From NCBI GenBank assembly GCA_964406145.1, contig CAYOQP010000002.1:13537-77536 (forward strand): DNA of 64,000 nt, given 5' to 3'. This DNA is from an uncultured Candidatus Saccharibacteria bacterium. GTDB taxonomy: Bacteria; Patescibacteriota; UBA1384; XYA2-FULL-43-10; 1-14-0-10-43-13. This document shows positions 7,110 through 25,301 of this stretch, piece after piece (the first letter of the stretch is position 1; every line of letters starts with the position of its first letter). A model generated the notes under the pieces. That model did no database searches and was not told where the DNA came from. It worked only from the letters and a program-made list of their open reading frames with translations. The translations under genes were made by a program, and so were the position numbers.

Positions 7110-7155
7110 TCTCAAAAAGTGCAATCACGCCGCTTTTCTGTCGGCTATTTTGACG

Positions 7156-7184
7156 TTGACACAAACACGAAAATATGTTAAAAT
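7156..7184 (+). promoter_or_regulatory. sigma70-like promoter (TTGACA-17-TAAAAT) at the left edge of the GC-rich island
   Basis: Consensus -35 with 17-bp spacer; AAGGAG RBS before ATG 7242. Confidence 0.5.
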
Positions 7185-7241
7185 ATCGCAAGCTCAGCCT
7201 GGGAAAGATCGAATTCAGGCGAGCTAACAAGGAGCGGGAAC

Positions 7242-7871
7242 ATGCGTACTTTGATAATTTTGAGCCTTGTGCTCACGGTGGCGATCCCGATGATCGTCCT
7301 TACCGGTTGCGGCCAGAAGCAACCGGACCGTGCCCTTTTGGCTGCGGTGGACTACTCTGGCTCGGTTGATTCCAAGGAGCGCGCCGACTACGTCGGCAAG
7401 CTCGAGGAGCTGATCGACCGGCAGGATGGCAAGGCAGAGGTAACACTCTACGTCTTCGCCAAGACGCCGGAAAAGGTCTACTCTGGCCGACCTCTTGACT
7501 TCACCGACTGCTGGTTGGTGGATGACGAGACCAAGGCTCGTGAGGCCGACAAGACTCGTGGAACGAGTCTTGCTCCCACGCTGGAACAGTATTGCAGGGA
7601 TGCAGCTGCTACCAGCCTGCCAGTGATTGCCGTTCTGTTCACAGACGGTGATTGCTTCGATGTCCCGCGTACCAAGGCGGCGGCAAAGAAGCTGGCAGAA
7701 ATGTCTAATTTCAAATGTCTGATGGTCGGACCGCTGACGACCGATAGACTCGGACTAGAGAACAGTACCCTTTCGCCCCTGCGCGATAGTGGTAAGCTGG
7801 TCACTTGTGGCCAGCACGACGTCGCCGACGCGTTCAACACGCTCATGGCGAAAGTGGGAGGCTCCAAATGA
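7242..7871 (+). CDS. vWA-like lipoprotein
   Basis: Lipoprotein signal (LTGCGQ); MIDAS-like DYSGSVD; VIAVLFTDGD. About 60% GC. Confidence 0.55.
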   Translation: MRTLIILSLVLTVAIPMIVLTGCGQKQPDRALLAAVDYSGSVDSKERADYVGKLEELIDRQDGKAEVTLYVFAKTPEKVYSGRPLDFTDCWLVDDETKAREADKTRGTSLAPTLEQYCRDAAATSLPVIAVLFTDGDCFDVPRTKAAAKKLAEMSNFKCLMVGPLTTDRLGLENSTLSPLRDSGKLVTCGQHDVADAFNTLMAKVGGSK

Positions 7872-9190
7872 CAAACCAGCGTTACACCGACGTAGACGAT
7901 CTCCTGGCGGCTGAGCCCCAGGACACTACCGGAGCCCCCACGGCTCCCGATATGGATGTCATGACCCTGCTGCAGCCGATCAATCATGATCTGGCTGCAT
8001 ACCAGACCGCCATCGACGCGATGGCCGCTTCCTACCCGGAAGAGGCGGCGCGTCTGACAGTTCTGCTGTCCCAGCTTCGCGAGACGGGCAACCGTTTCGA
8101 GGATGCTCGTGCTAGCGCAGAAACGCTGCGCAACCAGCTCATCGGACAGCGCCAGACTCAGCGCAATACGATCGAGACCGACCTGAAAACGGTCGTCTCT
8201 GCTCTCGTACCATTGCGTCAGGCCCACGATGCCAAAGCGGCCGCCTTCCGCCTGGAAGCCGCCAAGTATGGTGTCAGTTGTGAGCCGTCTGGCCCCGCTT
8301 ATCAGGCCGCCCTGGCCGAAAAAGCAGGAGTCGTTATTCCGGAAGAGATCCCGGCCCTGCCGGAACTCATGCCGGAACTGACCCAGAAGACCAAGTTGAT
8401 GGGGCTGAGCGACATCTTCGCCTCGATCCTGGTTGGCCTCTTCGTCGCTGTCTGTGTGTTGAGCGCTTTCGGGTTCTTGACATATCGCGCGATGAAGACG
8501 GGGCAAATTGACCCGATCGCCTGGGTCCTTTCCCCGTTCGGTCCCCTCGTTGTCTTGCTCGTCGGCATTGCCATCGCCTGGGTGACCAGGAACCTGCTCG
8601 AGCTGGAGATGGAGGATTCGTCCAAATCCCAGCGCAGCATGGCTTATGGCTCTGCCATTGCGATCGGCGCCATCTGGCTGGCGGAGATGTTCTTAGAGGC
8701 CTACGGTCTCTTCCGTCTCTCTCAGGAGAAGGCTGCCATCGCGGCGCGCATGACTGGGCAACCGGTCGAGGCAACTCCGCTTGCGTTCCTCGTCATCCTG
8801 GCGCTGATCGTCACGACACCGTACTTCGTCTATAAGGCTCTCAAGGCCTACAACGATACGATGCCGCGGATCAAAGCCTGGCGTGAGCGCAAAGCGGCCG
8901 AGCGCCAACGGGCCGAAGCTCTGGCACAGCGCGCCAGCGCCTGCCAAGCCATAGAGACGCTATGTCGCACGACCCCGCGCCTGCGGGACATCGGCGGCAT
9001 TGTCGCTCAAGCGGACGCGCTCGCGTCGCAGATTGAGCCCCTCGAGGCCCGCGAAGTACTGCTCCGGGAATCCTTAGAGGACCTGGAGGGGGAGCCCGAA
9101 CTCCCTGCCCTTACCCAACAGACACTGCTGCGCTTGCGCACCGGTGTCGAGACCCTCGAGCACCAGCTCGTGGAACGTCTCACGACTTGA
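7868..9190 (+). CDS. polytopic membrane protein with N- and C-terminal coiled-coil regions
   Basis: ATGA overlap with the upstream stop; GGGAGG RBS; four hydrophobic helices in the middle; high GC. Confidence 0.55.
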   Translation: MTNQRYTDVDDLLAAEPQDTTGAPTAPDMDVMTLLQPINHDLAAYQTAIDAMAASYPEEAARLTVLLSQLRETGNRFEDARASAETLRNQLIGQRQTQRNTIETDLKTVVSALVPLRQAHDAKAAAFRLEAAKYGVSCEPSGPAYQAALAEKAGVVIPEEIPALPELMPELTQKTKLMGLSDIFASILVGLFVAVCVLSAFGFLTYRAMKTGQIDPIAWVLSPFGPLVVLLVGIAIAWVTRNLLELEMEDSSKSQRSMAYGSAIAIGAIWLAEMFLEAYGLFRLSQEKAAIAARMTGQPVEATPLAFLVILALIVTTPYFVYKALKAYNDTMPRIKAWRERKAAERQRAEALAQRASACQAIETLCRTTPRLRDIGGIVAQADALASQIEPLEAREVLLRESLEDLEGEPELPALTQQTLLRLRTGVETLEHQLVERLTT

Positions 9191-9214
9191 TGCCTTTACC
9201 GGCATCCCTATCAC

Positions 9215-9250
9215 GCCCTCGGCCAACCGGCCGAGGGCGTTGTGTATCTA
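9215..9250 (+). terminator. intrinsic terminator
   Basis: GCCCTCGGCC-AACC-GGCCGAGGGC perfect hairpin followed by a T-rich stretch. Confidence 0.7.
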
Positions 9251-9317
9251 TGGGATTTTTTACTTTGCCATATACATATATATGTATGAAGAAATCATAT
9301 ATAAAGTCAAATTGTTA

Positions 9318-9346
9318 TTGACAAAATAAATTTAGCGTGGTACAAT
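9318..9346 (+). promoter_or_regulatory. perfect consensus sigma70 promoter P1 (TTGACA-17-TACAAT)
   Basis: Seen directly in the sequence. Confidence 0.6.
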
Positions 9347-9531
9347 GCAGCGTTCTGAGGGTGAGTGAGTGGAAGACCTCAGGAGGTGCAAGATCGATTA
9401 AATAATTACGCTACATAGCAAAAGTGGCAGTAGAGTACTGGTAATTCGTTGGCTCCCCTCCGCCTTCGAGTTGCCAGTACTTTGCCGCCAGACGTATCAA
9501 CTTTACCCAGCTCAAAACAGACAATACAGTC

Positions 9532-9560
9532 TTGACAAAAACAGAAAAATGTAGTATAAT
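9532..9560 (+). promoter_or_regulatory. perfect consensus sigma70 promoter P2 (TTGACA-17-TATAAT)
   Basis: Seen directly; lies 214 bp downstream of P1. Confidence 0.6.
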
Positions 9561-10005
9561 ACTCTTATGCACGATAGGAAATGAAGTCGTGAGCAACACA
9601 CAAAATAGTAACGAAAAGCATGAATACTGGCGCATATGATCGAGGGTAATTGCACAGAATCAAGTTTACCTAGAATCAGGCGACAGCGTCCTGCATAATT
9701 CAATCCATCGCAAGATGGAATCGTGGGTTCCCCCTCCGCCCGCGAGAGTTATGCAGAACAGTGTCGCTTTATTTGTCTCAAAAGAGACAATATAGGGTCA
9801 CCTGCACATTAACAATATTATAAACTTTCTCAGCAAAGAATTAGCTAATCACACACTATGGCGCTCGTAACGGCGTAATCTGATCTTGCGATCACTCGCG
9901 CCAGAGGAAACGCCAGAATAGCCCTGATCTCGATTGGCAACTTCTTGCTGAGAAAGCACACTCCAGCCCGTCAATATGACGGATCTTGATAGAAGGAGAA
10001 AGACG

Positions 10006-10899
10006 ATGAATAAACTCGTCACCCTCATCACTTTGTCCGTCATCTTAGTTATGACGGCTGGACTCAACGCATTTGCCGTCTCTGACGGCTATGCCTACGG
10101 CACGGCCCCTGCGCCGACCATGACCAACCCGGCCCCTGTGCCGGCTACCAGTTCTTCCACTGCTACTGCGAAGGCAGAAGCCGTGATCAATCAGATGATC
10201 ACGAAGAAGACCGTTGTGGTCCACCGCCATGGTGGCGGGACCGTAGTCAACGTGCCGCGGCAAGCGGCACCCGTAGTGAATAACTACATCGTGCCGCCGG
10301 CACCGCCGGCAAAGGAGAACGATATGAGTGGAGTACTGATGGGCCTAGTGGTCCTCGGCTGCATCGCGGTTATCGGCGTCATCGCTTGGATCATTACTGC
10401 CGTCATTCAAGGCGGTATGATCGCTCGCACAGAGCAAGCCGCCGCCGCCCGTGAGACCGCACAGCAAAACGCCATCCAGGCCAATGCATTAGCGGCCGCC
10501 AATGCCGCTGCCCGTATCCCTGGGTATGAAGCGCTCAATCTGAGCGTCACGCCCACTGGCCTGCACATGAACGTGCGCCCAGCGAATCCCACGCCGGTCA
10601 TCCCCGCCGCTCCGGTCGCGCCGCCCCCAACGCCGATCATCATCATCCCGCCGGCTGCGCCTGCCCCTGCGGCCCCCGCCGCTCCGGCTGGCTACATGCC
10701 AGCGCCGGTCTTCACCGTAGCGCCGATCACCCTCGTCCCAGTCGGGCACGCTCCGGCACCCGCCCCGGGACCCGCACCTGCTCCGGCACCTGCCCCTGCA
10801 CCTCGTCCCGCCCCGGGACCCGCACCTGCTCCGGCACCTGCCCCTGCACCTCGTCCCGCCGGTGGTGGTGCTCGCCGCCCCGCTCGCACAACCCCGTAA
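10006..10899 (+). CDS. signal-peptide/TM protein with Pro/Ala-rich tandem-repeat C-terminus
   Basis: AAGGAG RBS; N-terminal signal peptide; one internal TM; PAPAPGPAPAPAPAPAPRPA repeated twice (48-bp DNA tandem repeat). Confidence 0.5.
   Translation: MNKLVTLITLSVILVMTAGLNAFAVSDGYAYGTAPAPTMTNPAPVPATSSSTATAKAEAVINQMITKKTVVVHRHGGGTVVNVPRQAAPVVNNYIVPPAPPAKENDMSGVLMGLVVLGCIAVIGVIAWIITAVIQGGMIARTEQAAAARETAQQNAIQANALAAANAAARIPGYEALNLSVTPTGLHMNVRPANPTPVIPAAPVAPPPTPIIIIPPAAPAPAAPAAPAGYMPAPVFTVAPITLVPVGHAPAPAPGPAPAPAPAPAPRPAPGPAPAPAPAPAPRPAGGGARRPARTTP
10763..10858 (+). repeat. 2 x 48-bp perfect tandem repeat encoding the Pro/Ala-rich segment
   Basis: ccccgggacccgcacctgctccggcacctgcccctgcacctcgtcccg occurs twice, head to tail. 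Confidence 0.8.
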
Positions 10900-11017: not shown

Positions 11018-11569
11018 ATGTCCGACACTCCCGCCGGCACCACCGGCAAAGCGCAGATCAAGCTTCCGCAGCTTCCGCCGGCAGTTGAGCCGGAAGATCT
11101 GCGGACTCGCCTGATGGAAGTGGCAGTTGCCACCCCGTCCGGCGAACGCGCCAAGATGATCGATGCTCTCTCGCGGAAAATGGCCGGTGGCAGCAATGCC
11201 GTCGAGCATCTCCTCGAAGTGATCGAAGACACCAGCGCGGCGCGCGAAGAAATCGTCGGCGCCATCGCCATCCTCATCTCCCCCGCGATCTGGGACAAGT
11301 ACACCAATCCCGATCTGCGTGGAGCTGTCGTCTCCTGGCTCGTGTGGCTGGCCACACAGGAGTTCGACTCCGACATCAGCTTGACCGCGCTGGCGGCAGC
11401 CCAAGCCCTCCTCGCCGAGGGACCGCTCCGCAAGGAGCACGCCAACACAGTCAAAACCTGCATTCTGCAGGCGCGACAGATGGATCCGCCGCTCACCTGG
11501 TCCATCGCCGTCTCGTTCGTCTTCGACTTCGTCGCCAGCAATGGTGGCGAGTCGAAAGACAAGCAATAG
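11018..11569 (+). CDS. hypothetical protein (GC-rich island)
   Basis: GGAGG RBS 7 nt before ATG 11018; high GC; no recognisable motif. Confidence 0.4.
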   Translation: MSDTPAGTTGKAQIKLPQLPPAVEPEDLRTRLMEVAVATPSGERAKMIDALSRKMAGGSNAVEHLLEVIEDTSAAREEIVGAIAILISPAIWDKYTNPDLRGAVVSWLVWLATQEFDSDISLTALAAAQALLAEGPLRKEHANTVKTCILQARQMDPPLTWSIAVSFVFDFVASNGGESKDKQ

Positions 11570-11584
11570 TGAGCATCGCCGCGG

Positions 11585-11648
11585 CCCCCACTCTTCCTGA
11601 AAGGGTGGGGGATTCGCATTTTATAAGGACTTTATTAGTCCTTTTTTT
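11585..11648 (+). terminator. double hairpin terminator at the right edge of the GC-rich island
   Basis: CCCCCACTCTT...AAGGGTGGGGG followed by AAGGACT-TTATT-AGTCCTT and a T7 run. Confidence 0.65.
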
Positions 11649-11740: not shown

Positions 11741-12100
11741 ATGTCAAGTCAACAAGCACAGGACTCCATTGTTGGTGATATCATTAAAAAAGATCTCATC
11801 GATCTTTTGGGATTAAACGATCTACCTGAGGAGAAGAAAGAAGAGTACCGCAAGACGGCGGCTGAGACAGTCTACAACCGAGCCTTTATCCGTGCTACTG
11901 ATATGCTCGAAGAGATGGGACTACTAGAAGAATACCAGAAGGAAGATCGAGACGAAGAGGGGACTAAAGCCTTTTTTGCGAGTCACGGAATCGATCTGGA
12001 ACAATTGCTTAAAGATGAAGCCTTGATATATAAGACGCAGATGAAGATGTCTGCAGACCTACTGGATGCTGGGATAGACGTAAAAGCCAAAGCGGCTTAA
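11741..12100 (+). CDS. hypothetical small acidic protein
   Basis: GGAGGG RBS; 119 aa. Confidence 0.45.
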   Translation: MSSQQAQDSIVGDIIKKDLIDLLGLNDLPEEKKEEYRKTAAETVYNRAFIRATDMLEEMGLLEEYQKEDRDEEGTKAFFASHGIDLEQLLKDEALIYKTQMKMSADLLDAGIDVKAKAA

Positions 12101-17780: not shown

Positions 17781-20333
17781 ATGTACAGTGGAGGGAATTA
17801 TTATAATAGCGATCCAGGATTATTCGCGGATGGAATTCCGTGGTATTTTTGGTTGATCGGCGTAATTGTTATTATTGTTTTGGTTGCGATTTTCTATCAA
17901 TGGATCAGGCTCTGGATTCTAGCTCGTTTTCAAATGAGGCTTTCTAAGGACTGGGTCATGTACAAGATTTTGGTGCCGAAAGAACGACATGCCGAGGAAG
18001 ATGATCAGCGCAAGAATTTCCAGGAAATGCTAGCAGTTATTGAGCCATTCTATGCTAATCTAAATGCACTCTTTGATAATTCGATGATCAAGAAAATGAC
18101 TGGTCAGGTCAATGTCTCACTCGAAATTATCGCCAAAGACAATGTCATTTCTTTTTATGTTGGTTGTCCGAGAAAAATATCAGAGATTGTTTTGAAAAAT
18201 CTTCATTCTCAGTACGCTCATGCCGAGATTACTGAGGATAATAATTTTTCAATTTTTCCCAAGAAACCTCTTCAGATTGATATTCTGAATCTAAAGCTAA
18301 TCAAGAGATATTTGTTCCCGATTAAGACATACAAGAATCTCGAGGAAGATCCTCTCAATGCTTTGTCAAATTCGCTTTCTAAGCTTACACTTGATCAGCT
18401 GGCTGGAGTACAGATAATGCTGAGACCGACCTCTGGAATGTGGAGATTGCCGATCGAGCGCGCAGCCTTCAATATTCAGCATGGAAAATCGAGAATTTCT
18501 TATTCCTCATCGGCTACAGTCCGAGCCTCTGAAGCCTTTTTCAATTTCATTGGGCAAGCAGCTAATAATGCGACAGGCAAGGGCGAGGAACAACACACCG
18601 AATTTTATGATCCAAAAAATCCCATGAAAGTAACACCGATGCAAGAAGCACAGGTCAAGATGCTTGGCGAGAAGGCGGCTAAACTTGGATTTGAATGTCA
18701 AATTAGAGTTGTGGCGGTTGCTGAGACAAAGGATCAGGCCAAGCAATTGTCTCGACATGTTGCTGGCGCCTTCAATCAGTTCAATTCTCCTGATGCCAAT
18801 GGTTTTGTGACTAAGGAAGTTAAAAAAATGTCAGAGGAATTAGCCAACTATATCTTTAGGGTTTTCGGTCGGGGGCCGAGACTAATTCTTAATACTGAAG
18901 AGCTGGCTTCACTGTTTCATTTCCCAAATCGTTTTGTTGACACACCTAACATTGTTTGGCTGCTTGCCAAGAAGGAGGCGCCGCCAGCAAACTTGCCAAC
19001 CGAAGGCACGATTCTTGGCAAAGCCCTTTACCGTGGTCAGGAGCAGATGATCAAGATCAAACAGGGCGACAGACTTAGACACTTATACCAGATCGGTAAG
19101 ACCGGCGTGGGTAAGACTGTCCTTTTCCAGAACATGATTCTGCAGGATATTCTTGAGGGTAATGGCGTCTGTTATCTGGACCCGAATGGTGACGCGGCCG
19201 AGTGGATATTGAATCATATACCCAAGGAGCGTGCTGACGATGTCATCTACTTCAACCCAGCTGATCGAGAAAGGCCGATGGGTCTCAATATGTTGGAGTG
19301 GAAGACGTCTGATCAGAGAGACTTTTTGGTCCAGGAAGCTATTCAAATTTTTTACAAGCTTTTCGATCCCAATCAGACCGGTATTGTTGGTCCACAGTTT
19401 GAGCACTGGATGCGCAATGCCTCACTGACTTTAATGTCTCACCCTGATGGTGGCACCATCATCGATATCCCGAGACTCTTTACTGATCCAGATTTCGAAA
19501 AGAGTCGAGTCAAATATGTCAAAGATCCAGTTGTCAAATCATTCTGGGAGAAGCAGATGGCCAAGACGGCGGATTTCCATAAATCTGAAATGTTAAACTA
19601 CTTTACCTCAAAGTTTGGTCGTTTCATGACCAACGATATGATGCGCAATATTATTGGTCAGACCAAGTCATCTTTTGATTTCCGAGACATTATGGATAAT
19701 AAGAAGATTTTGATCTGTAATCTCTCGAAAGGTTTGATAGGGGAGATCAACGCATTTCTGCTGGGTATGATAATAGTTTCCAAGATCGCGATGGGAGCCT
19801 TCTCTCGCCAAGATATTCCAGAGAGTGAGCGTATCCCATTCTTTCTCTATGTTGATGAGTTTCAGAACTTTGTGACTGAGGTTTTTGCCACCATCTTGTC
19901 TGAGTCAAGGAAATACAAGCTGTCTCTAAATATTACTAATCAGTATATCGAACAGCTTGATGAGAAGATTAGAGCGGCTGTAATAGGTAATGCCGGCACA
20001 TTGGTGGCCTTTCGAATGGGTGCGGCTGACGCAGAATTTTTCGTCAAGGAATTTGAGCCGCTAAAGCCGGAGGACTTAACGACAATTGATAAGTATAATT
20101 TCTATATCAAAATGCTGATTGATGGGGCACCAACCAAGCCGTTTAACGGTCAAAGTATCTGGCCTGATGATCCAGAAGGAAATCCGAAGCTTGGAGCGGC
20201 GATTAAGGAGCTTTCCAGGATGAAATATGGCAAACCCAAAGAGATGATTGAGACGGAAATCCTAGAACGATCCAAAGTTGCTTCTATTGATTTACCAGGC
20301 CTACAGCCAACTTCAAACCAGCCCACTCTTTAA
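17781..20333 (+). CDS. membrane-anchored FtsK/HerA-superfamily P-loop ATPase (VirD4/TraG/VirB4-like)
   Basis: N-terminal TM; Walker A GKTGVGKT followed by DPNGD; Walker B FFLYVDEFQNF. Confidence 0.7.
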   Translation: MYSGGNYYNSDPGLFADGIPWYFWLIGVIVIIVLVAIFYQWIRLWILARFQMRLSKDWVMYKILVPKERHAEEDDQRKNFQEMLAVIEPFYANLNALFDNSMIKKMTGQVNVSLEIIAKDNVISFYVGCPRKISEIVLKNLHSQYAHAEITEDNNFSIFPKKPLQIDILNLKLIKRYLFPIKTYKNLEEDPLNALSNSLSKLTLDQLAGVQIMLRPTSGMWRLPIERAAFNIQHGKSRISYSSSATVRASEAFFNFIGQAANNATGKGEEQHTEFYDPKNPMKVTPMQEAQVKMLGEKAAKLGFECQIRVVAVAETKDQAKQLSRHVAGAFNQFNSPDANGFVTKEVKKMSEELANYIFRVFGRGPRLILNTEELASLFHFPNRFVDTPNIVWLLAKKEAPPANLPTEGTILGKALYRGQEQMIKIKQGDRLRHLYQIGKTGVGKTVLFQNMILQDILEGNGVCYLDPNGDAAEWILNHIPKERADDVIYFNPADRERPMGLNMLEWKTSDQRDFLVQEAIQIFYKLFDPNQTGIVGPQFEHWMRNASLTLMSHPDGGTIIDIPRLFTDPDFEKSRVKYVKDPVVKSFWEKQMAKTADFHKSEMLNYFTSKFGRFMTNDMMRNIIGQTKSSFDFRDIMDNKKILICNLSKGLIGEINAFLLGMIIVSKIAMGAFSRQDIPESERIPFFLYVDEFQNFVTEVFATILSESRKYKLSLNITNQYIEQLDEKIRAAVIGNAGTLVAFRMGAADAEFFVKEFEPLKPEDLTTIDKYNFYIKMLIDGAPTKPFNGQSIWPDDPEGNPKLGAAIKELSRMKYGKPKEMIETEILERSKVASIDLPGLQPTSNQPTL

Positions 20334-20437: not shown

Positions 20438-20944
20438 ATGCCAACTGAAAAAGAGCTCGAAAGAGTCAAACAATTGCTTGATGCGGCGGAAGCCAGCATC
20501 AGACAGGCGAAGAACGTTTTGTTCACAGCTGAGCTGTCTGAGATGACCAAGGAGTTGTCCAACGGTGATAGCAAGGTGATCGAAGGCGTTTTCAATGGCG
20601 AGAGCATGGTCGGCCCCGATAAAAAGATTTATCCGGTGCCCGCAAACTATGCTTCTAAGTCAAAATTAGTAAGCGGGGATGTCTTAAAGCTTACAATTCT
20701 TGATGATGGCACTTTTCTTTATAAGCAGATCGGGCCGGTCAAACGTAAAAAGGTTATCGGCGAACTTATCGAGGTTGGCGATGGAAAATATATCGTCGAC
20801 ACCAAGAGCGCCGAATATCAAGTTTTGCCTGCGTCAGTAACTTATTTTAAAGCCAAATCAGGTGACAAATTAACAATTCTTTTGCCAGAAGCCGGAGTCT
20901 CCGAGTGGGCGGCAGTAGAAAATTTATTAGAATCAACAATTTAA
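20438..20944 (+). CDS. hypothetical protein
   Basis: 168-aa ORF. Confidence 0.45.
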   Translation: MPTEKELERVKQLLDAAEASIRQAKNVLFTAELSEMTKELSNGDSKVIEGVFNGESMVGPDKKIYPVPANYASKSKLVSGDVLKLTILDDGTFLYKQIGPVKRKKVIGELIEVGDGKYIVDTKSAEYQVLPASVTYFKAKSGDKLTILLPEAGVSEWAAVENLLESTI

Positions 20945-20952
20945 GAGGTAAA

Positions 20953-21987
20953 ATGGTAGTCAAAAACTTTAGCCCCTACAAATTAGTTAGTGAAGCAATT
21001 CATGAATTGAAACCAAATGAGGTTACCGTCATTTCTGGTCGTTTTGGCATTGGTTCTGATCATCTTACTCTTTCTGCTATTGGCAAAAAGCTTAAACTCT
21101 CTAGAGAGCGAATACGTCAAATTGAACGCGAAGCCCTAAAAAAGGTTGCACGTCTGATTGTGAATGAGAAAAATTCTTCTATCAATGAGATTGTTCGTTC
21201 TTTCGAAAAAAATGGTGGCATCACTAGCCATGAAAAAATTGCCGAAAAGTTTCTCGAAGAGAATTATTGGAATGACAAAAACGAGTTCAATTCACTTCAT
21301 CTTATTTTTGTTATTATGCCATCAATTTTGAAAATTGAAAAAACCCAAGAGCTTGAGTCTGGCTGGATGCTAACGTCCTTGTCGAAAGATGACGCAATTA
21401 AAATTATTAACGATTGGGTTGGCCATCTTAAGAAAAATAATAAACCAGAAACTCTTGATGTTTTGATTGATGCTCATCCAGAACACAAGAAATACAAAGT
21501 TACTTTCCTGTCAGAGCTTCCAGAAATTAGTAAGAAACTAGTCAAAACTGATACCGGCCACATTGGTCTATCTTCTTGGCCAGAGGTCAATCCTAAAAAC
21601 GTTCGTGACAAAATATTCTACATCCTAAATCATCATGGTAAGCCAATGCACTTTGAAGACATCGCCAAGGCGATCGTCGACCATAAGTTTGATGGCAAAA
21701 AAATTGTCAAAGCCACAGTTCATAACGAATTGATTGCTGATTCTCGTTTCGTTTTGATTGGCCGTGGAATTTATGCTCTCAAAGAGTGGGGTTATCAACA
21801 GGGTACAGTCTCGGACATCATCAAAGAGATTCTCTCAAAGCATGCCGCTGGTCTTACAGTTGACGAAATCACCAAGAAAGTTTTAGAACAGAGAATGGTT
21901 AAGAAAAATACCATCCTTATCAATCTCCAGACAAAGCCATATTTTAAGAAAATTTCTAAAGAGAAATACGTCCTAAGTAGCTTCTAA
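20953..21987 (+). CDS. sigma-70 region-4-like HTH protein (putative regulator)
   Basis: LTLSAIGKKLKLSRERIRQIEREALKKVAR resembles RpoD region 4.2; AAGAGG RBS before ATG 20953. Confidence 0.55.
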   Translation: MVVKNFSPYKLVSEAIHELKPNEVTVISGRFGIGSDHLTLSAIGKKLKLSRERIRQIEREALKKVARLIVNEKNSSINEIVRSFEKNGGITSHEKIAEKFLEENYWNDKNEFNSLHLIFVIMPSILKIEKTQELESGWMLTSLSKDDAIKIINDWVGHLKKNNKPETLDVLIDAHPEHKKYKVTFLSELPEISKKLVKTDTGHIGLSSWPEVNPKNVRDKIFYILNHHGKPMHFEDIAKAIVDHKFDGKKIVKATVHNELIADSRFVLIGRGIYALKEWGYQQGTVSDIIKEILSKHAAGLTVDEITKKVLEQRMVKKNTILINLQTKPYFKKISKEKYVLSSF

Positions 21988-22059
21988 GGCCCTAGTAAAT
22001 CTTACTCCATAGCAGTATAATGATCTTAGTCGTATTACGACTTAGTTTGCAGTAGGAGT

Positions 22060-25000
22060 ATGAATTACATTTTATACATTATCTATGCTATCCTAATCAT
22101 TGGTCCGATTTACCTTATTTGGGCGATTATGAATATTAATAGAAAAATGAAAAAAGTTGACTGGCTCAATGCACAAGAATACACCATTCTTCGCATTGAT
22201 GTCCCGAAAAATAATGACAAGTCTCCGCTTGCCGCTGAGCAAATGTTTGCCGCTATTCATGGAATTTACTCGGAGAGTGCTAGTTATCAAAATCATCTCT
22301 CTTTCGAAATAGTTTCCAAAGACAAGTTTATCCAATTCTATATCTATCTTCCGGTCCATTTGAAAGATTTTGTCGAAGGGCAAATTTATGCTCAATATCC
22401 GACAGTTGAGATTCAGGAAGTAGGGGATTACACTCAAGAAATCGACCCTAAGTCACAGAACTATGCTACCTGCGAGCTCGGTCTTAATAAGCCTGATGTT
22501 TATCCGATAAAGCAGTTTACTGATTTTGAAGTTGACCCGATTTCCGGCATCACTTCTGTTATGACGAAGCTCAATGCTGGCGAGGAAATTTGGTTTCAGG
22601 TCATGATCAGGCCGATAGGCGATGAGTGGCAGGAAAAGGGTCATGAAATGGTTTCGCACATACGTAACGGCACGTCTCTCAGGGGTAAGGGGCTAGCCGG
22701 TCAGTTCAACAAGACATTAAAACTTTGGTTTAAAGCTTTCTTTATTCAGCTCGTTAAACCAGGAGAGGCTTTTGAAACTAAGCCATCTGAAGTTAAACTT
22801 CATGCTTCCGTTGAGGATGCTCTCAAAAACATTGAACAAAAAATCACCAAGCTGGGTTTTGAGACCAAGATGCGAATCTTGGCTTTGGGCGGAGATAGTG
22901 TTTCGGCCAGAATGAAATGCCAGAATGTTGCTGCTGCCTTCAAGCAATACAACACTACCCACCTAAACGGTTTCAAGGTTGGCGAAATTTTGGTTAACGA
23001 TCATTCGGCTTGGAAGGATTTTGCAGAGCGTTCTTTTGAAGATGATGGTAAGATTTTTAATATTTCCGAACTTGCCTCAATTTATCACTTGCCTCATAGC
23101 TCGGTTTCGACGCCAAATATTGTTTGGTCTGGATCCAAGAAAGGCGAGCCACCTGCTAATTTGCCTCTTCGTGAAAATACTCCAGAGGACGAACTAACTG
23201 TAATCGGTGAGACAAATTTCAGAAACAACTTCAAGGTTTTCGGCATCAAGAAAGATGACAGGCGCCGACATATCTACATTGTTGGTAAGTCTGGTGTAGG
23301 TAAATCAGTTTTGATTGAAAATATGGCTGTCAATGATGTTTGTGCGGGTAGGGGAGTGATTGTGGTCGATCCACATGGCGAACTAGCCGATAAGGTTCTT
23401 TCCTGTATTCCAGAAAACAGAATTAAAGATGTAGTGGTTTTCGATCCATCTGATCGTGAATTTCCGGTTGCCTTTAACCTTCTAGAGCATGTTGATGATG
23501 ACTTTAAGAGTATTGTCGCTTCAGGTTTCGTCGGTATTTTCAAAAAGATTTTTGGCGATTCTTGGGGCCCTCGTCTCGAGCATATTCTTCGAAACACGGT
23601 TTTGGCGCTTCTTGATTTTCCTGATTCGACCATGTTGGACATTCCGAGAATGTTAACTAATAATCGTTTTCGCGAAAAAGTTATCGAAAGAGTAAAGGAC
23701 CCAATCATTAAAGAATTCTGGCTCAATGAATTTGCTTCATTCGATAGCAAGTTCAGAACTGAAGCCGTTTCGCCAATTTTGAACAAGGTTGGACAATTTT
23801 TGTCTTCGGCCACAATCAGACATATTGTTGGTCAGCCAAAATCAACGATTAATATTCGTGAAATTATGGATCAAAAGAAGATAATGATTGTCAATCTTTC
23901 TCGCGGTAAGATCGGTGAGGATAATTCGGCCCTCTTGGGTGCAATGATGATCACCAAAGTTCAGCTTGCGGCTATGAGCCGTGCTGATGTTACTGTCGAT
24001 AATCGACCGGATAGTTATCTTTACGTCGATGAGTTTCAGAACTTTGCCACAGAATCATTCGCTGTTATTCTGGCAGAAGCCAGAAAATATAACTTGAATC
24101 TCACAATGGCTCATCAGTATATTGCTCAGCTTAAGGAGGAAGTGAGAGAGGCTGTCTTTGGTAATGCCGGCACAATTATTTCCTTTAGAGTTGGTGGAGC
24201 CGATGCTGATACTTTGGTCAAAGAGTTTGAACCAGTCTTTGAAACTAATGATATGGTCAATCTTGATAAATATCATATTTACATCAAGCTTCTTGTTGAC
24301 GGTGTTTCCTCCCCGGCATTTTCTGCTCGTACATTGCCTCCAGTCCAAAAACTAACAGGTAATCTTGAAGCTGTGATCAATAATTCGCGTAGCACTTATT
24401 CTCGAACACGTGCTGAAGTTGAGAATATGATCATGCACAGAAGCCAAGAGGAGGAAGAAGAGCTTAAGGCGGAAGCAGAGGCTTTCAAGCAAGGTGGCCT
24501 TGAAGCCCTTTTGTCCAAAAAACCAGTTTCTGTAACCTCTTCCCCAAGTTCTGAAGAGAAAAAGGGCGATCTTGATGTTGAGATTATCCAAGAGCCAGTT
24601 CCGATTAAATGGATCAATCCAGAGAAACCAGAAGTTAAGGATGTGCCAGCCGAGACCAAGACAATCGCTGAGCCATCAGAACCAAGGAACGAAAATGTTG
24701 AGACTAAAAAAGCAGAAGGTCCAAGAGTTGTGAAATATGATAGCATTCTGGACGGTAAAATTTATAAGGAAAGAACGGCTAGGGGAGGGGTGAAATGGTA
24801 TCTCGGGGAAGAGATTGACGAGGAAAAATTAGCCAAGAATAAGGTCTTATTAGATGACGGAGCTCGTAAAATTATTGAATTGTCAAAAGAAGTCGCGCCC
24901 AAAGGGGGAAAGAAAAATAACCAAAACAAGGGTGATGGTCATAAAAAAAATGATCATGAGGCAGGGGAGTCTCATTCTGGAAAAAGTGATAAGGTTGCAG

Positions 25001-25206
25001 AGAAGACTGAAGATAAAGACCCAGAGATAACTAAATTCCCAGAAAATCAAACTGAAAACGACAAGGCTAAAGAAGACAAAGAAGGGGCTGAAATCAAGAC
25101 TGAGCCAGAGGCAAAAATAGTCGCCGATAAAAATAACGATGAGCAGCCTATTAAATCCGATCCTCAGCATCTGGAAGAGGGCCAGTCGGTCAAAATTGGT
25201 GACTAA
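22060..25206 (+). CDS. membrane-anchored FtsK/HerA-superfamily P-loop ATPase paralog with Lys/Glu-rich C-terminal tail
   Basis: N-terminal TM; GKSGVGKS followed by DPHGE; SYLYVDEFQNF; alignable with the 17781 to 20333 protein across the whole ATPase region. Confidence 0.7.
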   Translation: MNYILYIIYAILIIGPIYLIWAIMNINRKMKKVDWLNAQEYTILRIDVPKNNDKSPLAAEQMFAAIHGIYSESASYQNHLSFEIVSKDKFIQFYIYLPVHLKDFVEGQIYAQYPTVEIQEVGDYTQEIDPKSQNYATCELGLNKPDVYPIKQFTDFEVDPISGITSVMTKLNAGEEIWFQVMIRPIGDEWQEKGHEMVSHIRNGTSLRGKGLAGQFNKTLKLWFKAFFIQLVKPGEAFETKPSEVKLHASVEDALKNIEQKITKLGFETKMRILALGGDSVSARMKCQNVAAAFKQYNTTHLNGFKVGEILVNDHSAWKDFAERSFEDDGKIFNISELASIYHLPHSSVSTPNIVWSGSKKGEPPANLPLRENTPEDELTVIGETNFRNNFKVFGIKKDDRRRHIYIVGKSGVGKSVLIENMAVNDVCAGRGVIVVDPHGELADKVLSCIPENRIKDVVVFDPSDREFPVAFNLLEHVDDDFKSIVASGFVGIFKKIFGDSWGPRLEHILRNTVLALLDFPDSTMLDIPRMLTNNRFREKVIERVKDPIIKEFWLNEFASFDSKFRTEAVSPILNKVGQFLSSATIRHIVGQPKSTINIREIMDQKKIMIVNLSRGKIGEDNSALLGAMMITKVQLAAMSRADVTVDNRPDSYLYVDEFQNFATESFAVILAEARKYNLNLTMAHQYIAQLKEEVREAVFGNAGTIISFRVGGADADTLVKEFEPVFETNDMVNLDKYHIYIKLLVDGVSSPAFSARTLPPVQKLTGNLEAVINNSRSTYSRTRAEVENMIMHRSQEEEEELKAEAEAFKQGGLEALLSKKPVSVTSSPSSEEKKGDLDVEIIQEPVPIKWINPEKPEVKDVPAETKTIAEPSEPRNENVETKKAEGPRVVKYDSILDGKIYKERTARGGVKWYLGEEIDEEKLAKNKVLLDDGARKIIELSKEVAPKGGKKNNQNKGDGHKKNDHEAGESHSGKSDKVAEKTEDKDPEITKFPENQTENDKAKEDKEGAEIKTEPEAKIVADKNNDEQPIKSDPQHLEEGQSVKIGD

Positions 25207-25271
25207 ATTTTGAAATTGTGACAGGGGAGAGCCGACCGGGGGAGTGGTCGAAATTTGCACTTTTATTGTCT

Positions 25272-25301
25272 GGGTGATGCTTGGTTCACCCTTTTTATTT
25301 T
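25272..25301 (+). terminator. intrinsic terminator
   Basis: GGGTGA-TGCTTGGT-TCACCC followed by TTTTTATTTT. Confidence 0.65.

What the first reader, a model, noticed from the sequence alone, without database searches (positions are those of the whole stretch)
7150..25300. About 18 kb accessory block inserted between tgt and secDF, with two compositionally distinct parts
Both flanks carry conserved housekeeping genes at the genome-typical roughly 40% GC. The intervening block has its own consensus promoters and terminators. It encodes only lineage-specific or unrecognisable proteins: a vWA-like lipoprotein, membrane proteins, a giant acidic protein, paired FtsK/HerA-type ATPases and a sigma region-4 regulator. 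The first 4.4 kb is about 60% GC and the remainder about 45 to 48%. This is the profile of a horizontally acquired or strain-variable island.
Basis: partly seen in the sequence, partly recalled or inferred. Interest (0 to 1): 0.8.

Follow-up and report, generated by a model that had tools for sequence, protein, structure and literature searches.

The report
Native gene cluster, small GC-rich insert
The 18-kb block is not a foreign island: most of it sits at this place in all related Berkelbacteria, only about 2 kb is a true GC-rich insertion, and it also holds an undescribed conserved small RNA next to surface-protein genes that stay GC-rich in AT-rich genomes.

Summary
The sequence features are real, but the "18-kb accessory island" reading fails for three quarters of the block.

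- **Conserved order.** RF-YbaB-Pth-L1-L10-L12-tgt-[variable]-ATPase1-(h168)-(sigma4/HARE-HTH)-ATPase2-(DUF1290)-secF-secD recurs in about 60 Berkelbacteria/Patescibacteria loci.
- **11.7-25.2 kb is native.** Codon and tetranucleotide usage match the host. The giant protein's 45-48% GC comes entirely from its amino acids.
- **7.15-11.6 kb is the only outlier,** and it is composite:
  - 7150-9240 is a self-contained two-gene cassette (MIDAS vWA lipoprotein plus a 4-TM coiled-coil protein, own promoter and terminator). It is absent from other Berkelbacteria at this site and occurs in unrelated contexts elsewhere, so it is a genuine insertion.
  - 9250-9975 (44% GC) is ancestral. It holds two consensus promoters driving two copies of a structured RNA with an invariant CCCCCUCC loop. 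The RNA has no Rfam match; 20 of 27 base pairs covary across 31 sequences.
  - PA307 and h183 (9976-11570) are GC-rich (GC3 0.66-0.78) yet have positional homologues in relatives.
- **A clade-wide pattern.** 22 of 33 related loci carry a GC-rich segment at this slot, against 0 of 33 in downstream controls.

Chimerism is excluded by independent assemblies. No integrase, tRNA or flanking repeats were found.

The parts
5973..7109 (+). tgt (queuine tRNA-ribosyltransferase), left anchor of the conserved synteny
   Evidence: Pfam TGT, 446 bits. Lies upstream of the cluster in most loci that reach far enough.
7156..7184 (+). Promoter P1 of the inserted cassette (TTGACA-17-TAAAAT, TG-extended)
   Evidence: 11 of 12 consensus matches. 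Nearly identical in L083, the 88.6%-identical relative.
7242..7871 (+). vWA209: lipoprotein with a vWA/integrin-I domain and an intact MIDAS motif (D37-x-S39-x-S41, T108, D135)
   Evidence: Lipobox LTGC in the sequence. Family of 74 cluster representatives with conserved MIDAS residues. Profile hits vWA/integrin I domains in PDB, E 3e-8. AF2 pLDDT 89.5 with vWA-fold matches at probability 1.00. GC3 0.67 against 0.39 expected. dN/dS 0.10 against L083.
7868..9190 (+). TM440: 440-aa membrane protein with coiled-coil ends and about 4 hydrophobic segments; obligate partner of vWA209
   Evidence: Only one other cluster (93% identity) among 5.8 billion proteins. 24% identical (E 2e-22) to the 487-aa gene that follows the vWA homologue in L092; the same pairing occurs in L094 and L096. 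GC3 0.74. dN/dS 0.13. Hydrophobic segments.
9214..9239 (+). GC-rich hairpin closing the cassette (CGCCCTCGGCC-AACC-GGCCGAGGGCG); terminator-like
   Evidence: Read from the sequence. One compensatory pair change in L083. No clean U-run follows, so terminator function is inferred.
9318..9346 (+). Promoter P2 (TTGACA-17-TACAAT, TG-extended), drives RNA copy 1
   Evidence: Conserved in L083, L089 and L005.
9423..9503 (+). C-loop RNA, copy 1 (short form: single long hairpin, loop CUCCCCUCCG)
   Evidence: Model R1 gives 35.4 bits, E 8e-5. Fold z-score -3.8 for 9353-9531. Short forms of the same kind occur in L003, L022, L026, L028, L029 and L034.
9532..9560 (+). Promoter P3 (perfect TTGACA-17-TATAAT), drives RNA copy 2
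   Evidence: 12 of 12 matches. Conserved in L089 and L005. 28 of 39 RNA copies have a promoter with at most one mismatch 18-123 nt upstream.
9676..9782 (+). C-loop RNA, copy 2 (long form): outer stem, variable side hairpin, inner hairpin with an invariant 9-nt loop WCCCCCUCC, then a U-rich tail
   Evidence: R1 gives 91.9 bits, E 3e-18; the minus-strand mirror scores only 31 bits. Covariation: 97.7% of cells paired, 20 of 27 pairs with double changes in 31 distinct sequences; slid controls 26-49%. No Rfam match at E<=5.
10006..10899 (+). PA307: signal peptide, one TM helix and a Pro/Ala-rich tail; fast-evolving GC-rich surface/membrane protein. The ORF opens at 9976; the likely start is 10006, behind AAGGAG.
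   Evidence: Sequence. 40% identical GC-rich homologue at the same position in L084. The TM/juxtamembrane domain is found by iterated HMM in L041, L018 and L019 at the same position. GC3 0.66 against 0.37 expected.
10747..10866 (+). 12-nt periodic (PAPA-coding) repeat inside PA307
   Evidence: Repeat family D1. Both Logan contigs end here, at 10788. It is the only part of the block matching plasmid records, as low-complexity hits.
11018..11569 (+). h183: acidic soluble 183-aa protein, GC3 0.78, no family match
   Evidence: 34% identical homologue follows the PA307 homologue in L084, L085 and L087. No Pfam, PHROG, PADLOC or NCBIfam hit.
11585..11643 (+). Two hairpins ending the GC-rich unit (CCCCCAC...GTGGGGG, then AAGGACT-TTATT-AGTCCTT followed by T7)
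   Evidence: Sequence. The second is reported by the terminator scan.
11741..12100 (+). h119: small acidic helical protein; conserved first gene of the giant-protein module
   Evidence: phmmer hits in 22 further ORFs at the same position (19 distinct loci), E 2e-46 to 4e-6. Alignment A5. Native GC3 of 0.45. SD is GGAGGG.
12111..16814 (+). Giant acidic protein (1567 aa, pI 4.5) with N-terminal Gly-rich hydrophobic segments
   Evidence: A positional equivalent of 700-2000 aa occurs in nearly all relatives with 60-83% ATPase1 identity. 38% identity over 956 aa to L084. GC is fully explained by amino acids; GC3 0.33.
16822..17778 (+). h318: acidic protein (pI 4.3); a poorly conserved slot between the giant protein and ATPase1
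   Evidence: Relatives have one or two ORFs of 200-600 aa here. Weak similarity to L084.
17781..20333 (+). ATPase1: N-terminal TM helix, DUF8128 domain and a VirB4/VirD4-like P-loop ATPase domain
   Evidence: 2850 homologues at E<=1e-10, 60-84% identity in the best 120, carrying PF26449 and often PF02534. Invariant Walker A (GKTGVGKT) and Walker B (YVDEFQ). Fold matches TrwK/VirB4, TrwB and HerA on a model of moderate confidence, pLDDT 68.
20438..20944 (+). h168: conserved small protein between the two ATPases
   Evidence: 50-75% identity at the same position in about 45 loci.
20905..21987 (+). Sigma70 region 4 plus HARE-HTH protein (probable start 20953)
   Evidence: Pfam Sigma70_r4 50.4 bits and HARE-HTH 55.5 bits. 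42-81% identity at the same position in relatives.
22060..25206 (+). ATPase2: paralogue of ATPase1 (about 35% identity) with a long charged C-terminal tail
   Evidence: Pfam T4SS-DNA_transf, DUF87, TraG-D_C and TrwB_AAD_bind, all above their cut-offs. Conserved in nearly all loci that extend past ATPase1.
25755..26111 (-). DUF1290 small membrane protein; the conserved neighbour before secF
26264..28448 (-). secF and secD, right anchor of the conserved synteny

Best explanation
The block is a composite of native and inserted DNA, not one island.

**1. 17.8-25.2 kb: core locus (shown).** Two membrane-anchored VirB4/VirD4-like ATPases with DUF8128 domains, h168 and a sigma4/HARE-HTH protein sit between tgt and secDF throughout Berkelbacteria and neighbouring Patescibacteria.

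**2. 11.7-17.8 kb: native but fast-evolving (shown).** h119, the giant acidic membrane-anchored protein and h318 are present in the subclade with 60-83% ATPase1 identity. Their raised GC comes only from amino-acid composition.

**3. The slot between tgt and h119 is hypervariable across the clade (shown).** Its ancestral content is one or two copies of a strongly promoted structured RNA of about 105 nt with an invariant CCCCCUCC loop, followed by one or more GC-rich genes for signal-peptide/transmembrane, Ala/Pro-rich proteins. PA307 and h183 fill that role here.

**4. 7150-9240 is a secondary insertion (shown; route unknown).** In this species and an 88.6%-identical relative, a self-contained cassette (promoter, MIDAS vWA lipoprotein, 4-TM coiled-coil partner, hairpin) was inserted between tgt and the RNA locus. 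It probably came from a higher-GC gene pool. No recombinase or repeats mark the route.

**Inferred mechanism**
- The vWA lipoprotein and its membrane partner form a cation-dependent ligand- or host-binding device on the cell surface (about 50%).
- The ATPase pair, with the giant protein and the variable surface proteins, forms an envelope translocation or surface-assembly apparatus rather than a conjugation system (about 35%).
- The RNA is a regulator of this locus, acting in one of two ways:
  - as a trans-acting small RNA whose anti-Shine-Dalgarno-like loop pairs with GGAGG(G) ribosome-binding sites, such as those of h119 and the giant gene; or
  - as a cis-acting leader/attenuator of the GC-rich gene downstream.
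- That the RNA is real: about 90%. That it acts by Shine-Dalgarno pairing: about 30%.

The confidence of 0.8 applies to the structural statement (points 1-4), not to the inferred functions.
For: **Synteny**
- The conserved order appears in about 60 loci. In distant relatives tgt lies 80-560 bp from ATPase1.
- Close relatives carry a 119-aa h119 homologue, a 1937-aa giant protein, a 533-aa protein, ATPase1, and so on.

**Composition**
- GC3 is 0.66-0.78 for four genes only; the giant protein and h318 match expectation.
- Tetranucleotide usage deviates only for 7150-11600.

**Cassette**
- No homologue in any Berkelbacteria locus except L083.
- Homologous vWA-plus-membrane pairs occur in L092, L094 and L096, in unrelated neighbourhoods. 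One is in a 63% GC contig; in the 43-47% GC contigs the pair is mostly GC-elevated.
- dN/dS is 0.10-0.13, so both are real genes.
- In L089 the RNA spacer follows tgt directly.

**PA307 and h183**
- GC-rich homologues at the same position in L084; domain homologues in L041, L018 and L019.
- 22 of 33 related loci have a 500-bp window at least 15 GC points above background upstream of ATPase1, against 0 of 33 downstream.

**RNA**
- The spacer is conserved at nucleotide level although the flanking genes are not (nhmmer E down to 1e-29).
- Covariation is strong and the signal is strand-specific.
- All hits lie between tgt and a GC-rich gene across 1.9 Mb searched.
- Consensus promoters lie upstream.

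**Chimerism excluded**
- The left junction is identical in two Logan assemblies and recurs, by identical gene products and spacing, on a 39-kb JGI contig whose DNA could not be fetched. It is also present in the diverged L083.
- The right junction is spanned by the JGI contig and mirrored in L084 and L087.

**Literature**
- About two VirD4-like homologues per Patescibacteria genome, mostly not next to virB4 (PMC12102498).
Against: - No transcript data: promoters, terminators and the RNA are predictions.
- The donor of the cassette is unknown, and the taxonomy of the genomes carrying its homologues (L092, L094, L096) was not established.
- How genes that appear vertically inherited (the PA307 family) keep GC3 of 0.5-0.8 in genomes of 36-47% GC (local background) is unexplained. 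Repeated replacement from a high-GC pool would blur the line between "native" and "acquired" for 9976-11570.
- The functional link between the ATPases, the giant protein and the variable genes rests on conserved adjacency only.
- The ATPase1 model is of moderate confidence (pLDDT 68, pTM 0.48), and a sequence profile found no PDB match.
- Synonymous divergence from L083 is lower in the cassette (dS 0.39) than in tgt (0.83). This could mean a later transfer between the two lineages, or simply codon constraint.
Confidence: 0.8

Rival explanations
1. One reading: the whole 18 kb (7150-25300) is one horizontally acquired or strain-variable island inserted between tgt and secDF.
For: No curated family names most of the proteins. 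GC is above background up to about 15 kb. The block has strong promoters of its own.
Against: The same gene order lies between tgt and secDF in about 60 loci across the lineage. ATPase1 is among the best-conserved proteins here, at 60-84% identity. 11.7-25.2 kb has native GC3 and tetranucleotide usage. There is no integrase, tRNA or flanking repeat.
Confidence: 0.03
2. The GC-rich 4.4 kb is an assembly chimera, a piece of a high-GC organism joined into a 40% GC contig.
For: The composition steps are very sharp at 7200 and 11600. The source is a metagenome assembly. Two Logan contigs break inside the segment.
Against: The left junction is 100% identical in two independent Logan assemblies. A 39-kb JGI contig, whose DNA could not be fetched, lists identical gene products and spacing across both junctions. 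An 88.6%-identical relative from another study has the same left junction. L084 and L087 show the homologous right junction. The Logan breaks fall in the 12-nt PAPA repeat. The internal spacer is Berkelbacteria-specific sequence.
Confidence: 0.02
3. All of 7150-11600 is one recent acquisition from a high-GC donor, and the 44% GC spacer came with it.
For: All four genes share high GC3 (0.66-0.78). All have strong promoters and GC-rich hairpins.
Against: The spacer and its RNA are conserved in relatives that lack vWA209-TM440; in L089 the spacer abuts tgt. PA307 and h183 have positional homologues in L084 at only 34-40% identity, so they were present before that split. The vWA-TM pair travels alone elsewhere.
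Confidence: 0.07
4. The slot between tgt and h119 is a cassette-exchange hotspot. GC-rich genes there, including PA307 and h183, are repeatedly replaced from a high-GC mobile gene pool, with the conserved RNA hairpins marking or mediating the exchange. On this view their GC-richness is never ameliorated because residence times are short.
For: 22 of 33 loci hold GC-rich DNA at this slot, against 0 of 33 in controls. Gene content there differs between genomes: the L010/L012 set, the collagen-like L009/L016/L084 set and the ANPLGG-motif L003/L005/L018/L022 set. In L003 and L157 each of two GC-rich genes is preceded by an RNA copy. A similar promoter, GC-rich ORF and hairpin unit (h150) sits between rplA and rplJ.
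Against: PA307's TM domain follows the species relationships as far as can be seen. No recombinase lies nearby. The hairpins have G-U pairs, an invariant loop and strand-specific scores, which point to an RNA rather than a DNA recombination site. Inspection of the alignment shows no RYYYAAC/GTTRRRY core sites of attC.
Confidence: 0.2
5. A rival for the RNA only: the conserved hairpin is a cis-acting leader or conditional terminator controlling the downstream GC-rich gene, not a trans-acting small RNA.
For: It always lies 90-390 nt upstream of a GC-rich gene on the same strand. Copy 2 ends in a U-run like an attenuator. The leader between the RNA and the start codon is partly conserved. No strong consensus promoter was seen between the RNA and the gene in the window.
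Against: Copy 1 lacks a U-run and is followed at once by another promoter. The most conserved part is the loop, not an alternative-pairing segment. A conserved TTRACAA element downstream of the RNA could be the -35 box of a separate gene promoter.
Confidence: 0.4

Closest known systems
Orphan VirD4-type coupling-protein homologues of Patescibacteria (PMC12102498, Microb Genom 2025)
   Same: ATPase1 and ATPase2 are membrane-anchored P-loop ATPases with T4SS-DNA_transf, TraG-D_C and TrwB_AAD_bind signatures. They come as two per genome and do not lie next to virB4, as that paper reports for 5,713 homologues in 2,918 genomes.
   Different: Here they carry the DUF8128 N-domain. The full-length model aligns best with VirB4/TrwK. 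They sit in a fixed tgt-secDF locus with a sigma4/HARE-HTH gene and, in this subclade, a giant acidic protein. The window holds no relaxase or VirB components. Their function is untested.
vWA / integrin I-domain proteins with a MIDAS site (e.g. BatB 3ibs, integrin alpha I domains, TRAP)
   Same: Rossmann-like vWA fold (Foldseek probability 1.00, TM about 0.6) with conserved DxSxS, T and D residues.
   Different: It is a minimal 209-aa lipoprotein with no other domain. It is always paired with a 440-490-aa 4-TM coiled-coil protein. It scores below Pfam gathering thresholds, and the family is small at 74 representatives in 1.8 billion proteins.
Classical genomic islands and integrative elements
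   Same: The 2.1-kb cassette has atypical GC3, patchy distribution and its own promoter and terminator.
   Different: It has no integrase or transposase, no tRNA target and no direct repeats, and it is only two genes long. The other 16 kb of the proposed island is conserved or ancestral.
C-rich-loop regulatory small RNAs of Gram-positive bacteria (RsaE/RoxS type). This comparison comes from my own knowledge and was not tested here.
   Same: It is a small, strongly promoted RNA ending in a hairpin. An exposed C-rich loop is complementary to G-rich Shine-Dalgarno sequences; GGAGGG precedes h119 and the giant gene.
   Different: There is no sequence or Rfam relationship. The C-run sits in one invariant 9-nt loop of a 27-bp covarying structure. 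The copies are tandem and fixed to one locus. No targets are shown.
Integron attC sites / CALIN arrays
   Same: Imperfect hairpins of 60-110 nt lie next to variable promoter-proximal genes, sometimes one per gene (L003, L157).
   Different: The loop, not the stem ends, is invariant. Inspection shows no R''/R' core sites. The G-U pairs and strand asymmetry fit RNA. The elements lie 5' of the genes and carry their own promoters. No IntI is present.

Membership tests
Genomic island (horizontally acquired block) | Composition (GC3, oligonucleotides) differs from the host | tested here: inconclusive
   Met for 7150-9190 and 9976-11570 (GC3 0.66-0.78 against 0.37-0.40 expected; tetranucleotide r = -0.18). 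Not met for 11741-25206 (GC3 0.33-0.47; r = 0.77-0.93 against controls of 0.94-0.97)..
Genomic island (horizontally acquired block) | Absent from the same site in related genomes | tested here: not met
   Not met for 11.7-25.2 kb, which is conserved in about 60 loci. Met only for vWA209-TM440. PA307 and h183 have positional homologues in L084.
Genomic island (horizontally acquired block) | Mobility genes (integrase, transposase, recombinase) | tested here: not met
   None among the block's proteins or ten of the largest ORFs in the rest of the window (Pfam, PHROGs, NCBIfam).
Genomic island (horizontally acquired block) | tRNA/tmRNA target or flanking direct repeats | tested here: not met
   No tRNA or tmRNA in 64 kb. 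No repeat pair brackets 7150-9240 or 7150-11650.
VirB4/VirD4 (T4SS) ATPases of the HerA-FtsK superfamily | Walker A and Walker B motifs | tested here: met
   GKTGVGKT and YVDEFQ are invariant in 20 homologues. ATPase2 has GKSGVGKS and YVDEFQ.
VirB4/VirD4 (T4SS) ATPases of the HerA-FtsK superfamily | Curated family profiles matched above their cut-offs | tested here: met
   ATPase2: T4SS-DNA_transf 35.6 (cut-off 20.1), DUF87 27.3 (23.2), TraG-D_C 25.9 (22), TrwB_AAD_bind 25.0 (20.5). ATPase1 itself is just below (TraG-D_C 21.6 against 22), but many of its homologues carry PF02534. NCBIfam equivalogs are far below their cut-offs.
VirB4/VirD4 (T4SS) ATPases of the HerA-FtsK superfamily | Fold similarity to solved members | tested here: met
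   Foldseek matches TrwK/VirB4 at E 3e-13, TrwB at 4e-9 and HerA at 7e-9. TM-scores are low (0.2-0.5) and the model has pLDDT 68.
Functional type IV secretion or conjugation system | Neighbouring VirB-type channel components, a relaxase or other T4SS genes | tested here: not met
   No such family appears in the block or among the other window proteins scanned. This agrees with PMC12102498: most Patescibacteria T4CP homologues are not near virB4.
vWA domain with MIDAS | DxSxS, T and D metal-site residues | tested here: met
   D37, S39, S41, T108 and D135 are invariant or at least 90% conserved in 50 family members.
vWA domain with MIDAS | vWA fold | tested here: met
   AF2 pLDDT 89.5. The top 50 PDB matches are all vWA or integrin I domains. 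The family profile hits PDB vWA domains at E 3e-8.
vWA domain with MIDAS | Pfam vWA-type family above its gathering score | tested here: not met
   DUF2201 scores 21.3 against 26.4; vWA-TerF-like scores 18.1 against 29.4.
Any described RNA family (Rfam 15) | Covariance-model match | tested here: not met
   No match at gathering thresholds in 64 kb. None at E<=5 in 7000-12200.
Structured non-coding RNA (generic) | Base pairs maintained by compensatory changes, with strand specificity | tested here: met
   97.7% of cells paired against 26-49% in slid controls. 20 of 27 pairs show double changes, reached by 0 of 500 shuffles. Plus-strand scores are 65-104 bits against 25-38 bits on the minus strand.
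Independently transcribed small RNA | Own promoter and intrinsic terminator; a detectable transcript | tested here: inconclusive
   28 of 39 copies have a consensus promoter with at most one mismatch upstream. A U-run follows most second copies but not first copies. Expression cannot be tested with these tools.
Integron gene cassette / attC | R''/R' core sites, a variable loop and a nearby IntI | tested here: not met
   Inspection of A4 shows no RYYYAAC...GTTRRRY cores. The loop is the invariant part. No integrase in the window.

The most novel reading that the evidence does not exclude
Berkelbacteria carry a fixed hypervariable slot between tgt and a conserved giant-protein/ATPase cluster. 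It is marked by tandem copies of an undescribed, strongly promoted RNA whose invariant CCCCCUCC loop mimics the anti-Shine-Dalgarno sequence.

The surface-protein genes downstream of this RNA are held at GC3 0.5-0.86 in genomes of 36-47% GC (local background) by a locus-specific process. That process could be recurrent cassette replacement from a high-GC pool or biased gene conversion. On this reading the RNA regulates the locus or takes part in the exchange. It would be a new RNA class tied to a new mode of surface-gene diversification in episymbiotic bacteria.
Probability: 0.25. Interest if true: 0.75.

Novelty: new member of a known kind. Interest (0 to 1): 0.5.

Why it matters
**For the scan.** A sharp GC step, unnamed proteins and strong promoters do not make an island in candidate-phyla genomes. 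Here 13.5 of the 18 kb is core lineage DNA. Part of the GC signal is amino-acid composition, and part is a clade-wide property of one slot.

**For biology.** Three things become testable.
- A conserved, covarying small RNA that is not in Rfam. It has an anti-Shine-Dalgarno-like loop and occurs in Berkelbacteria and allied Patescibacteria, a group with almost no described regulatory RNAs.
- A locus where genes for exposed proteins stay GC-rich, with high GC3, in AT-rich reduced genomes across deep divergence. Simple acquisition followed by amelioration does not explain this.
- A fixed genomic home, with partners (giant acidic protein, sigma4/HARE-HTH protein), for the two orphan VirD4-like ATPases that the literature reports in most Patescibacteria without a known role.

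Tried and rejected
**Searches that found nothing useful**
- Rfam at gathering thresholds (whole window) and at E<=5 (7000-12200): nothing.
- tRNA/tmRNA scan: none.
- PADLOC: no hits. PHROGs: only two weak vWA-type hits for vWA209. NCBIfam: nothing useful for the unnamed proteins.
- TM440 against phage records (tblastn): no match.
- The 4.5 kb against plasmids (blastn): only the PAPA low-complexity repeat matches.
- TM440 and the RNA pattern against IMG/VR: no true relatives, so a phage origin gains no support.
- Repeat search for att-like direct or inverted repeats around the insert: none credible.

**Ideas considered and dropped**
- Diversity-generating retroelement or shufflon: no reverse transcriptase, invertase or template/variable repeat pair.
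- Integron attC: rejected (see the membership test).
- SRP, 6S, RNase P or tmRNA identity for the RNA: rejected on size, the tandem copies, the loop sequence and the lack of any Rfam signal.
- Minus-strand ORFs in the GC-rich part (7478-8506, 10981-11619 and others): by-products of high GC. The plus-strand genes have signal peptides, homologues and dN/dS of 0.10-0.13.

**Technical failures**
- The search for related loci with the vWA family alignment: no conserved stretch to search with.
- The metagenome pattern scan was too loose: it listed 80 loci (120 matching stretches), of which 11 were true by the covariance model.
- Exact look-up of the tgt ORF from its TTG start failed; the database gene starts two codons later.

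Full report
**1. What the window is**

The window comes from a genome of about 40% GC in the Berkelbacteria branch of Patescibacteria. The closest named homologues of its ATPase and of tgt are from Candidatus Berkelbacteria and Patescibacteria metagenome-assembled genomes. The rest of the window is housekeeping: RF, Pth, L1/L10/L12, tgt, SecDF, an AddA-like helicase, FtsZ/FtsA, enolase, GDH, HisRS, RelA/SpoT and ClpC. No mobility gene, tRNA or Rfam match is present.

**2. Checking the observation**

GC rises from 37% at 7000-7199 to about 60% from 7300 on, and falls from 62% to 30% between 11500 and 11800.

The GC-rich stretch is not uniform:
- vWA209 (7242-7871) and TM440 (7868-9190) are 57-62% GC.
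- A 785-bp ORF-free spacer (9191-9975) is 44%.
- PA307 (9976/10006-10899) and h183 (11018-11569) are 63-65%.

Beyond 11.7 kb, GC is 45-48% only to about 15 kb, then at background.

I partitioned GC into amino-acid and synonymous parts, using the codon usage of 16 host genes as reference.
- The four GC-rich genes would be 46-55% GC with host codons but are 57-66%. Their GC3 is 0.66-0.78 against 0.37-0.40 expected.
- For the giant protein and h318, observed GC equals expected GC (0.45 vs 0.47; 0.47 vs 0.47), and GC3 is 0.33-0.40.
- So the "second compositional part" is an amino-acid effect of an acidic, Ala/Gly/Pro-rich protein, not foreign DNA.

Tetranucleotide frequencies agree: r = -0.18 for 7150-11600, 0.77 for 11741-17778 and 0.93 for 17781-25206, against 0.94-0.97 for control segments.

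**3. Synteny**

I fetched 80 loci around ATPase1 homologues from one genome per species, plus loci from exact-protein look-ups.

tblastn of the window's proteins shows one recurring order: RF-YbaB-Pth-L1-L10-L12-tgt-[variable]-ATPase1-(h168)-(sigma4/HARE-HTH)-ATPase2-(DUF1290)-secF-secD.
- In distant relatives (ATPase1 about 50% identical), tgt ends 80-560 bp before ATPase1 and ATPase2 follows directly.
- In the subclade with 60-83% identity, 5.6-9.5 kb lies between tgt and ATPase1. It always contains an h119-type gene (22 further ORFs at that position in 19 distinct loci), a giant ORF of 700-2000 aa, and one or two more ORFs.

ATPase1 is highly conserved: 2850 homologues at E<=1e-10, with 60-84% identity in the best 120. 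A 2025 survey found about two VirD4-like homologues per Patescibacteria genome, mostly away from virB4, with a possibly exapted function (PMC12102498). The two ATPases here fit that description.
- Walker A and B motifs are invariant.
- ATPase2 passes four T4CP/HerA Pfam thresholds.
- A moderate-confidence model of ATPase1 (pLDDT 68) matches TrwK/VirB4, TrwB and HerA.

**4. Is the GC-rich part an artefact?**

No.
- Window 1-10788 is 100% identical to two Logan assemblies from other runs. Both end in the 12-nt PAPA repeat of PA307.
- A 39-kb JGI contig lists the same genes across both junctions into the giant gene. Its DNA could not be fetched, so this rests on identical products and spacing.
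- L083, from another study, is 88.6% identical over the tgt 3' end, vWA209, TM440 and the start of the spacer.
- L084 and L087 show the homologous PA307-like, h183-like and h119 order.

**5. The vWA209-TM440 cassette (7150-9240)**

Both genes are under purifying selection relative to L083: dN/dS 0.10 and 0.13, with tgt at 0.04.

vWA209:
- It has a lipobox.
- It belongs to a small family, 74 representatives among 1.8 billion proteins.
- The family keeps the MIDAS residues DxSxS, T and D.
- Its profile hits integrin I and vWA domains in PDB.
- Its model (pLDDT 89.5) has the vWA fold.

TM440 has only its own 93% variant among 5.8 billion proteins by word search.

The nearest vWA209 homologues are each followed by a membrane protein of 445-487 aa. 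They are L092 (43% identity, on a 1.04-Mb contig), L094 and L096. The L092 and L094 partners are detectably homologous to TM440, at E 2e-21 and 1e-15.
- These pairs sit in unrelated neighbourhoods.
- One is in a 63% GC contig.
- In the 43-47% GC contigs the pair is mostly GC-elevated too.

No other Berkelbacteria locus has the pair. In L089 the spacer follows tgt directly. L005, L003 and L090 carry a different pair of ORFs after tgt (433-464 aa, then 97 aa) at normal GC.

So this 2.1-kb unit is a true insertion, with its own promoter (7156-7184) and closing hairpin (9214-9239; one compensatory change in L083). There is no integrase, tRNA or repeat to explain the route. No phage or plasmid relative was found.

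**6. The spacer and its RNA (9250-9975)**

The ORF-free spacer is conserved at nucleotide level in many relatives, unlike the protein genes around it. nhmmer E-values are 1e-29 for L005 and 2e-23 for L089, with at least 14 further loci.

The conserved core is a structure of about 105 nt:
- an outer stem of 8 plus 7 pairs,
- a 6-pair stem,
- a variable side hairpin,
- an inner 6-pair hairpin capped by an invariant loop WCCCCCUCC,
- and, in second copies, a U-run.

RNAalifold finds 17 of 28 pairs with compensatory changes. Counting on my own alignment of 22 sequences gives 97.9% of cells paired, against 25-53% in slid controls. On the model-fitted alignment of 31 distinct sequences:
- 97.7% of cells are paired;
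- 20 of 27 pairs show double changes, in 151 cells;
- 0 of 500 shuffles reach this.

That second alignment leans towards the structure by construction.

Covariance model R1 scores 65-104 bits on the plus strand and 25-38 bits on the mirror strand.

In about 1.9 Mb searched, every true hit lies downstream of tgt and just upstream of a GC-rich gene. Often there are two tandem copies, and in L003 and L157 there is one copy before each of two GC-rich genes.

The window has:
- copy 2 at 9676-9782 (91.9 bits);
- a short-form copy 1 at 9423-9503 (35.4 bits);
- no copy elsewhere.

28 of 39 copies have TTGACA-17-TAnAAT, with at most one mismatch, 18-123 nt upstream. The whole 64-kb window holds only nine such sites. 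P2, P3 and the initial transcribed sequences align between the window, L089 and L005. There is no Rfam match and no hit in viral contigs.

I conclude that this is an undescribed structured RNA family. Whether it is a trans-acting small RNA or a leader/attenuator cannot be settled without transcript data. The loop is complementary to GGAGG(G), and GGAGGG precedes h119 and the giant gene. Strong Shine-Dalgarno sites are common, though, so this is only a lead.

**7. PA307 and h183, and the clade-wide GC anomaly**

PA307 has a signal peptide, one TM helix and a Pro/Ala tail.
- L084 (ATPase1 83% identical) has a GC-rich homologue at 40% identity, followed by an h183 homologue at 34%, at the same position.
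- Iterated HMM searches join the TM/juxtamembrane domains of the GC-rich genes at that position in L041, L018 and L019.
- Other relatives have non-homologous or barely alignable GC-rich genes there. Their architecture is similar: a signal peptide, Ala/Pro/Gly/Gln-rich or collagen-like repeats, a coiled coil with an ANPLGG motif, and one TM helix.

Quantitatively, 22 of 33 loci with ATPase1 identity of at least 60% have a 500-bp window at least 15 GC points above background between tgt and ATPase1. None of the 33 has one in the downstream control.

So the GC-richness of this slot belongs to the clade, not to this strain. I cannot explain it. The candidates are:
- recurrent replacement from a high-GC pool,
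- biased gene conversion at a recombining surface-antigen locus,
- selection at the RNA or DNA level.

A similar small unit, h150 (its own promoter, a GC-rich ORF and a hairpin), sits between rplA and rplJ.

**8. Verdict**

The block holds:
- a native, conserved ATPase/giant-protein cluster;
- an ancestral RNA locus with persistently GC-rich variable genes;
- one small, genuinely inserted cassette.

The functions proposed below rest on domain content and conserved adjacency. None is demonstrated.
- Surface binding by the vWA pair.
- Translocation or surface assembly by the ATPases.
- Regulation by the RNA.

Noticed in passing
window 37200-37880 (minus strand): An ORF-free stretch of about 55-57% GC in a 40% genome. 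It starts with a promoter-like TTGACA-17-TACCAT and ends in a hairpin plus U-run. It folds to -264.9 kcal/mol against -198.8 +/- 6.7 for shuffles (z = -9.85) and has no Rfam match at E<=1. Candidate large structured RNA of about 600 nt.
   Followed up: partly
window 52221-52690 (+): A near-consensus promoter (TTGACA-17-TATATT at 52221) is followed by about 450 nt at 52% GC with only a junk-looking ORF. Fold z-score is -3.8 and there is no Rfam match. Possibly another unannotated RNA.
   Followed up: partly
window 4124-4704 (h150 ORF 4204-4656, +): A GC-rich ORFan (GC 0.53; GC3 0.61 against 0.40 expected) with its own TTGACA-17-TACTAT promoter and a GC-rich hairpin, wedged between rplA and rplJ. 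No homologue in any fetched locus. It has the same "promoter, GC-rich ORF, hairpin" style as the vWA cassette.
   Followed up: partly
window 9783-10005; L003, L005, L006, L016, L089, L090: A conserved AGYAC-TTRACAA-(n)-ATA element lies 20-40 nt after RNA copy 2. In the window, a long-range stem (about 9828-9845 with about 9940-9958) encloses the PA307 leader. It could be a third promoter or a protein-binding site.
   Followed up: no
window 9567-9590; L089, L005: Right after promoter P3 the transcript begins with a conserved AUGnACGnU that opens a 3-5-codon mini-ORF (MHDRK*, MTIGN*, MHG*). After P2 there is a conserved hairpin CUGAGGG...CUCAGGAGG; L083 has a 31-nt hairpin inserted in its loop.
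   Followed up: no
L005 2435-4058, L003 125-1836, L090 11204-12817: In these relatives the position taken by vWA209-TM440 is occupied by a different pair of ORFs at normal GC (433-464 aa, then 97 aa; acidic and helical in L003 and L005). The tgt-proximal end of the slot is variable in its own right.
   Followed up: partly
window 7242-9190 vs L083: Synonymous divergence from the 88.6%-identical relative is about half as large in the cassette (dS 0.39) as in the adjacent tgt 3' end (dS 0.83). The promoter region 7110-7200 is almost identical. This may reflect codon constraint or a later exchange of the cassette between the two lineages.
   Followed up: no
L010 650-1805, L012 210-1341, L007 1435-1953: Some relatives carry a different set of very GC-rich soluble-protein genes at the same slot (GC3 up to 0.86 in genomes whose local background is 40-47% GC). 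From visual comparison of the sequences, these appear homologous among themselves but not to the window's genes.
   Followed up: no
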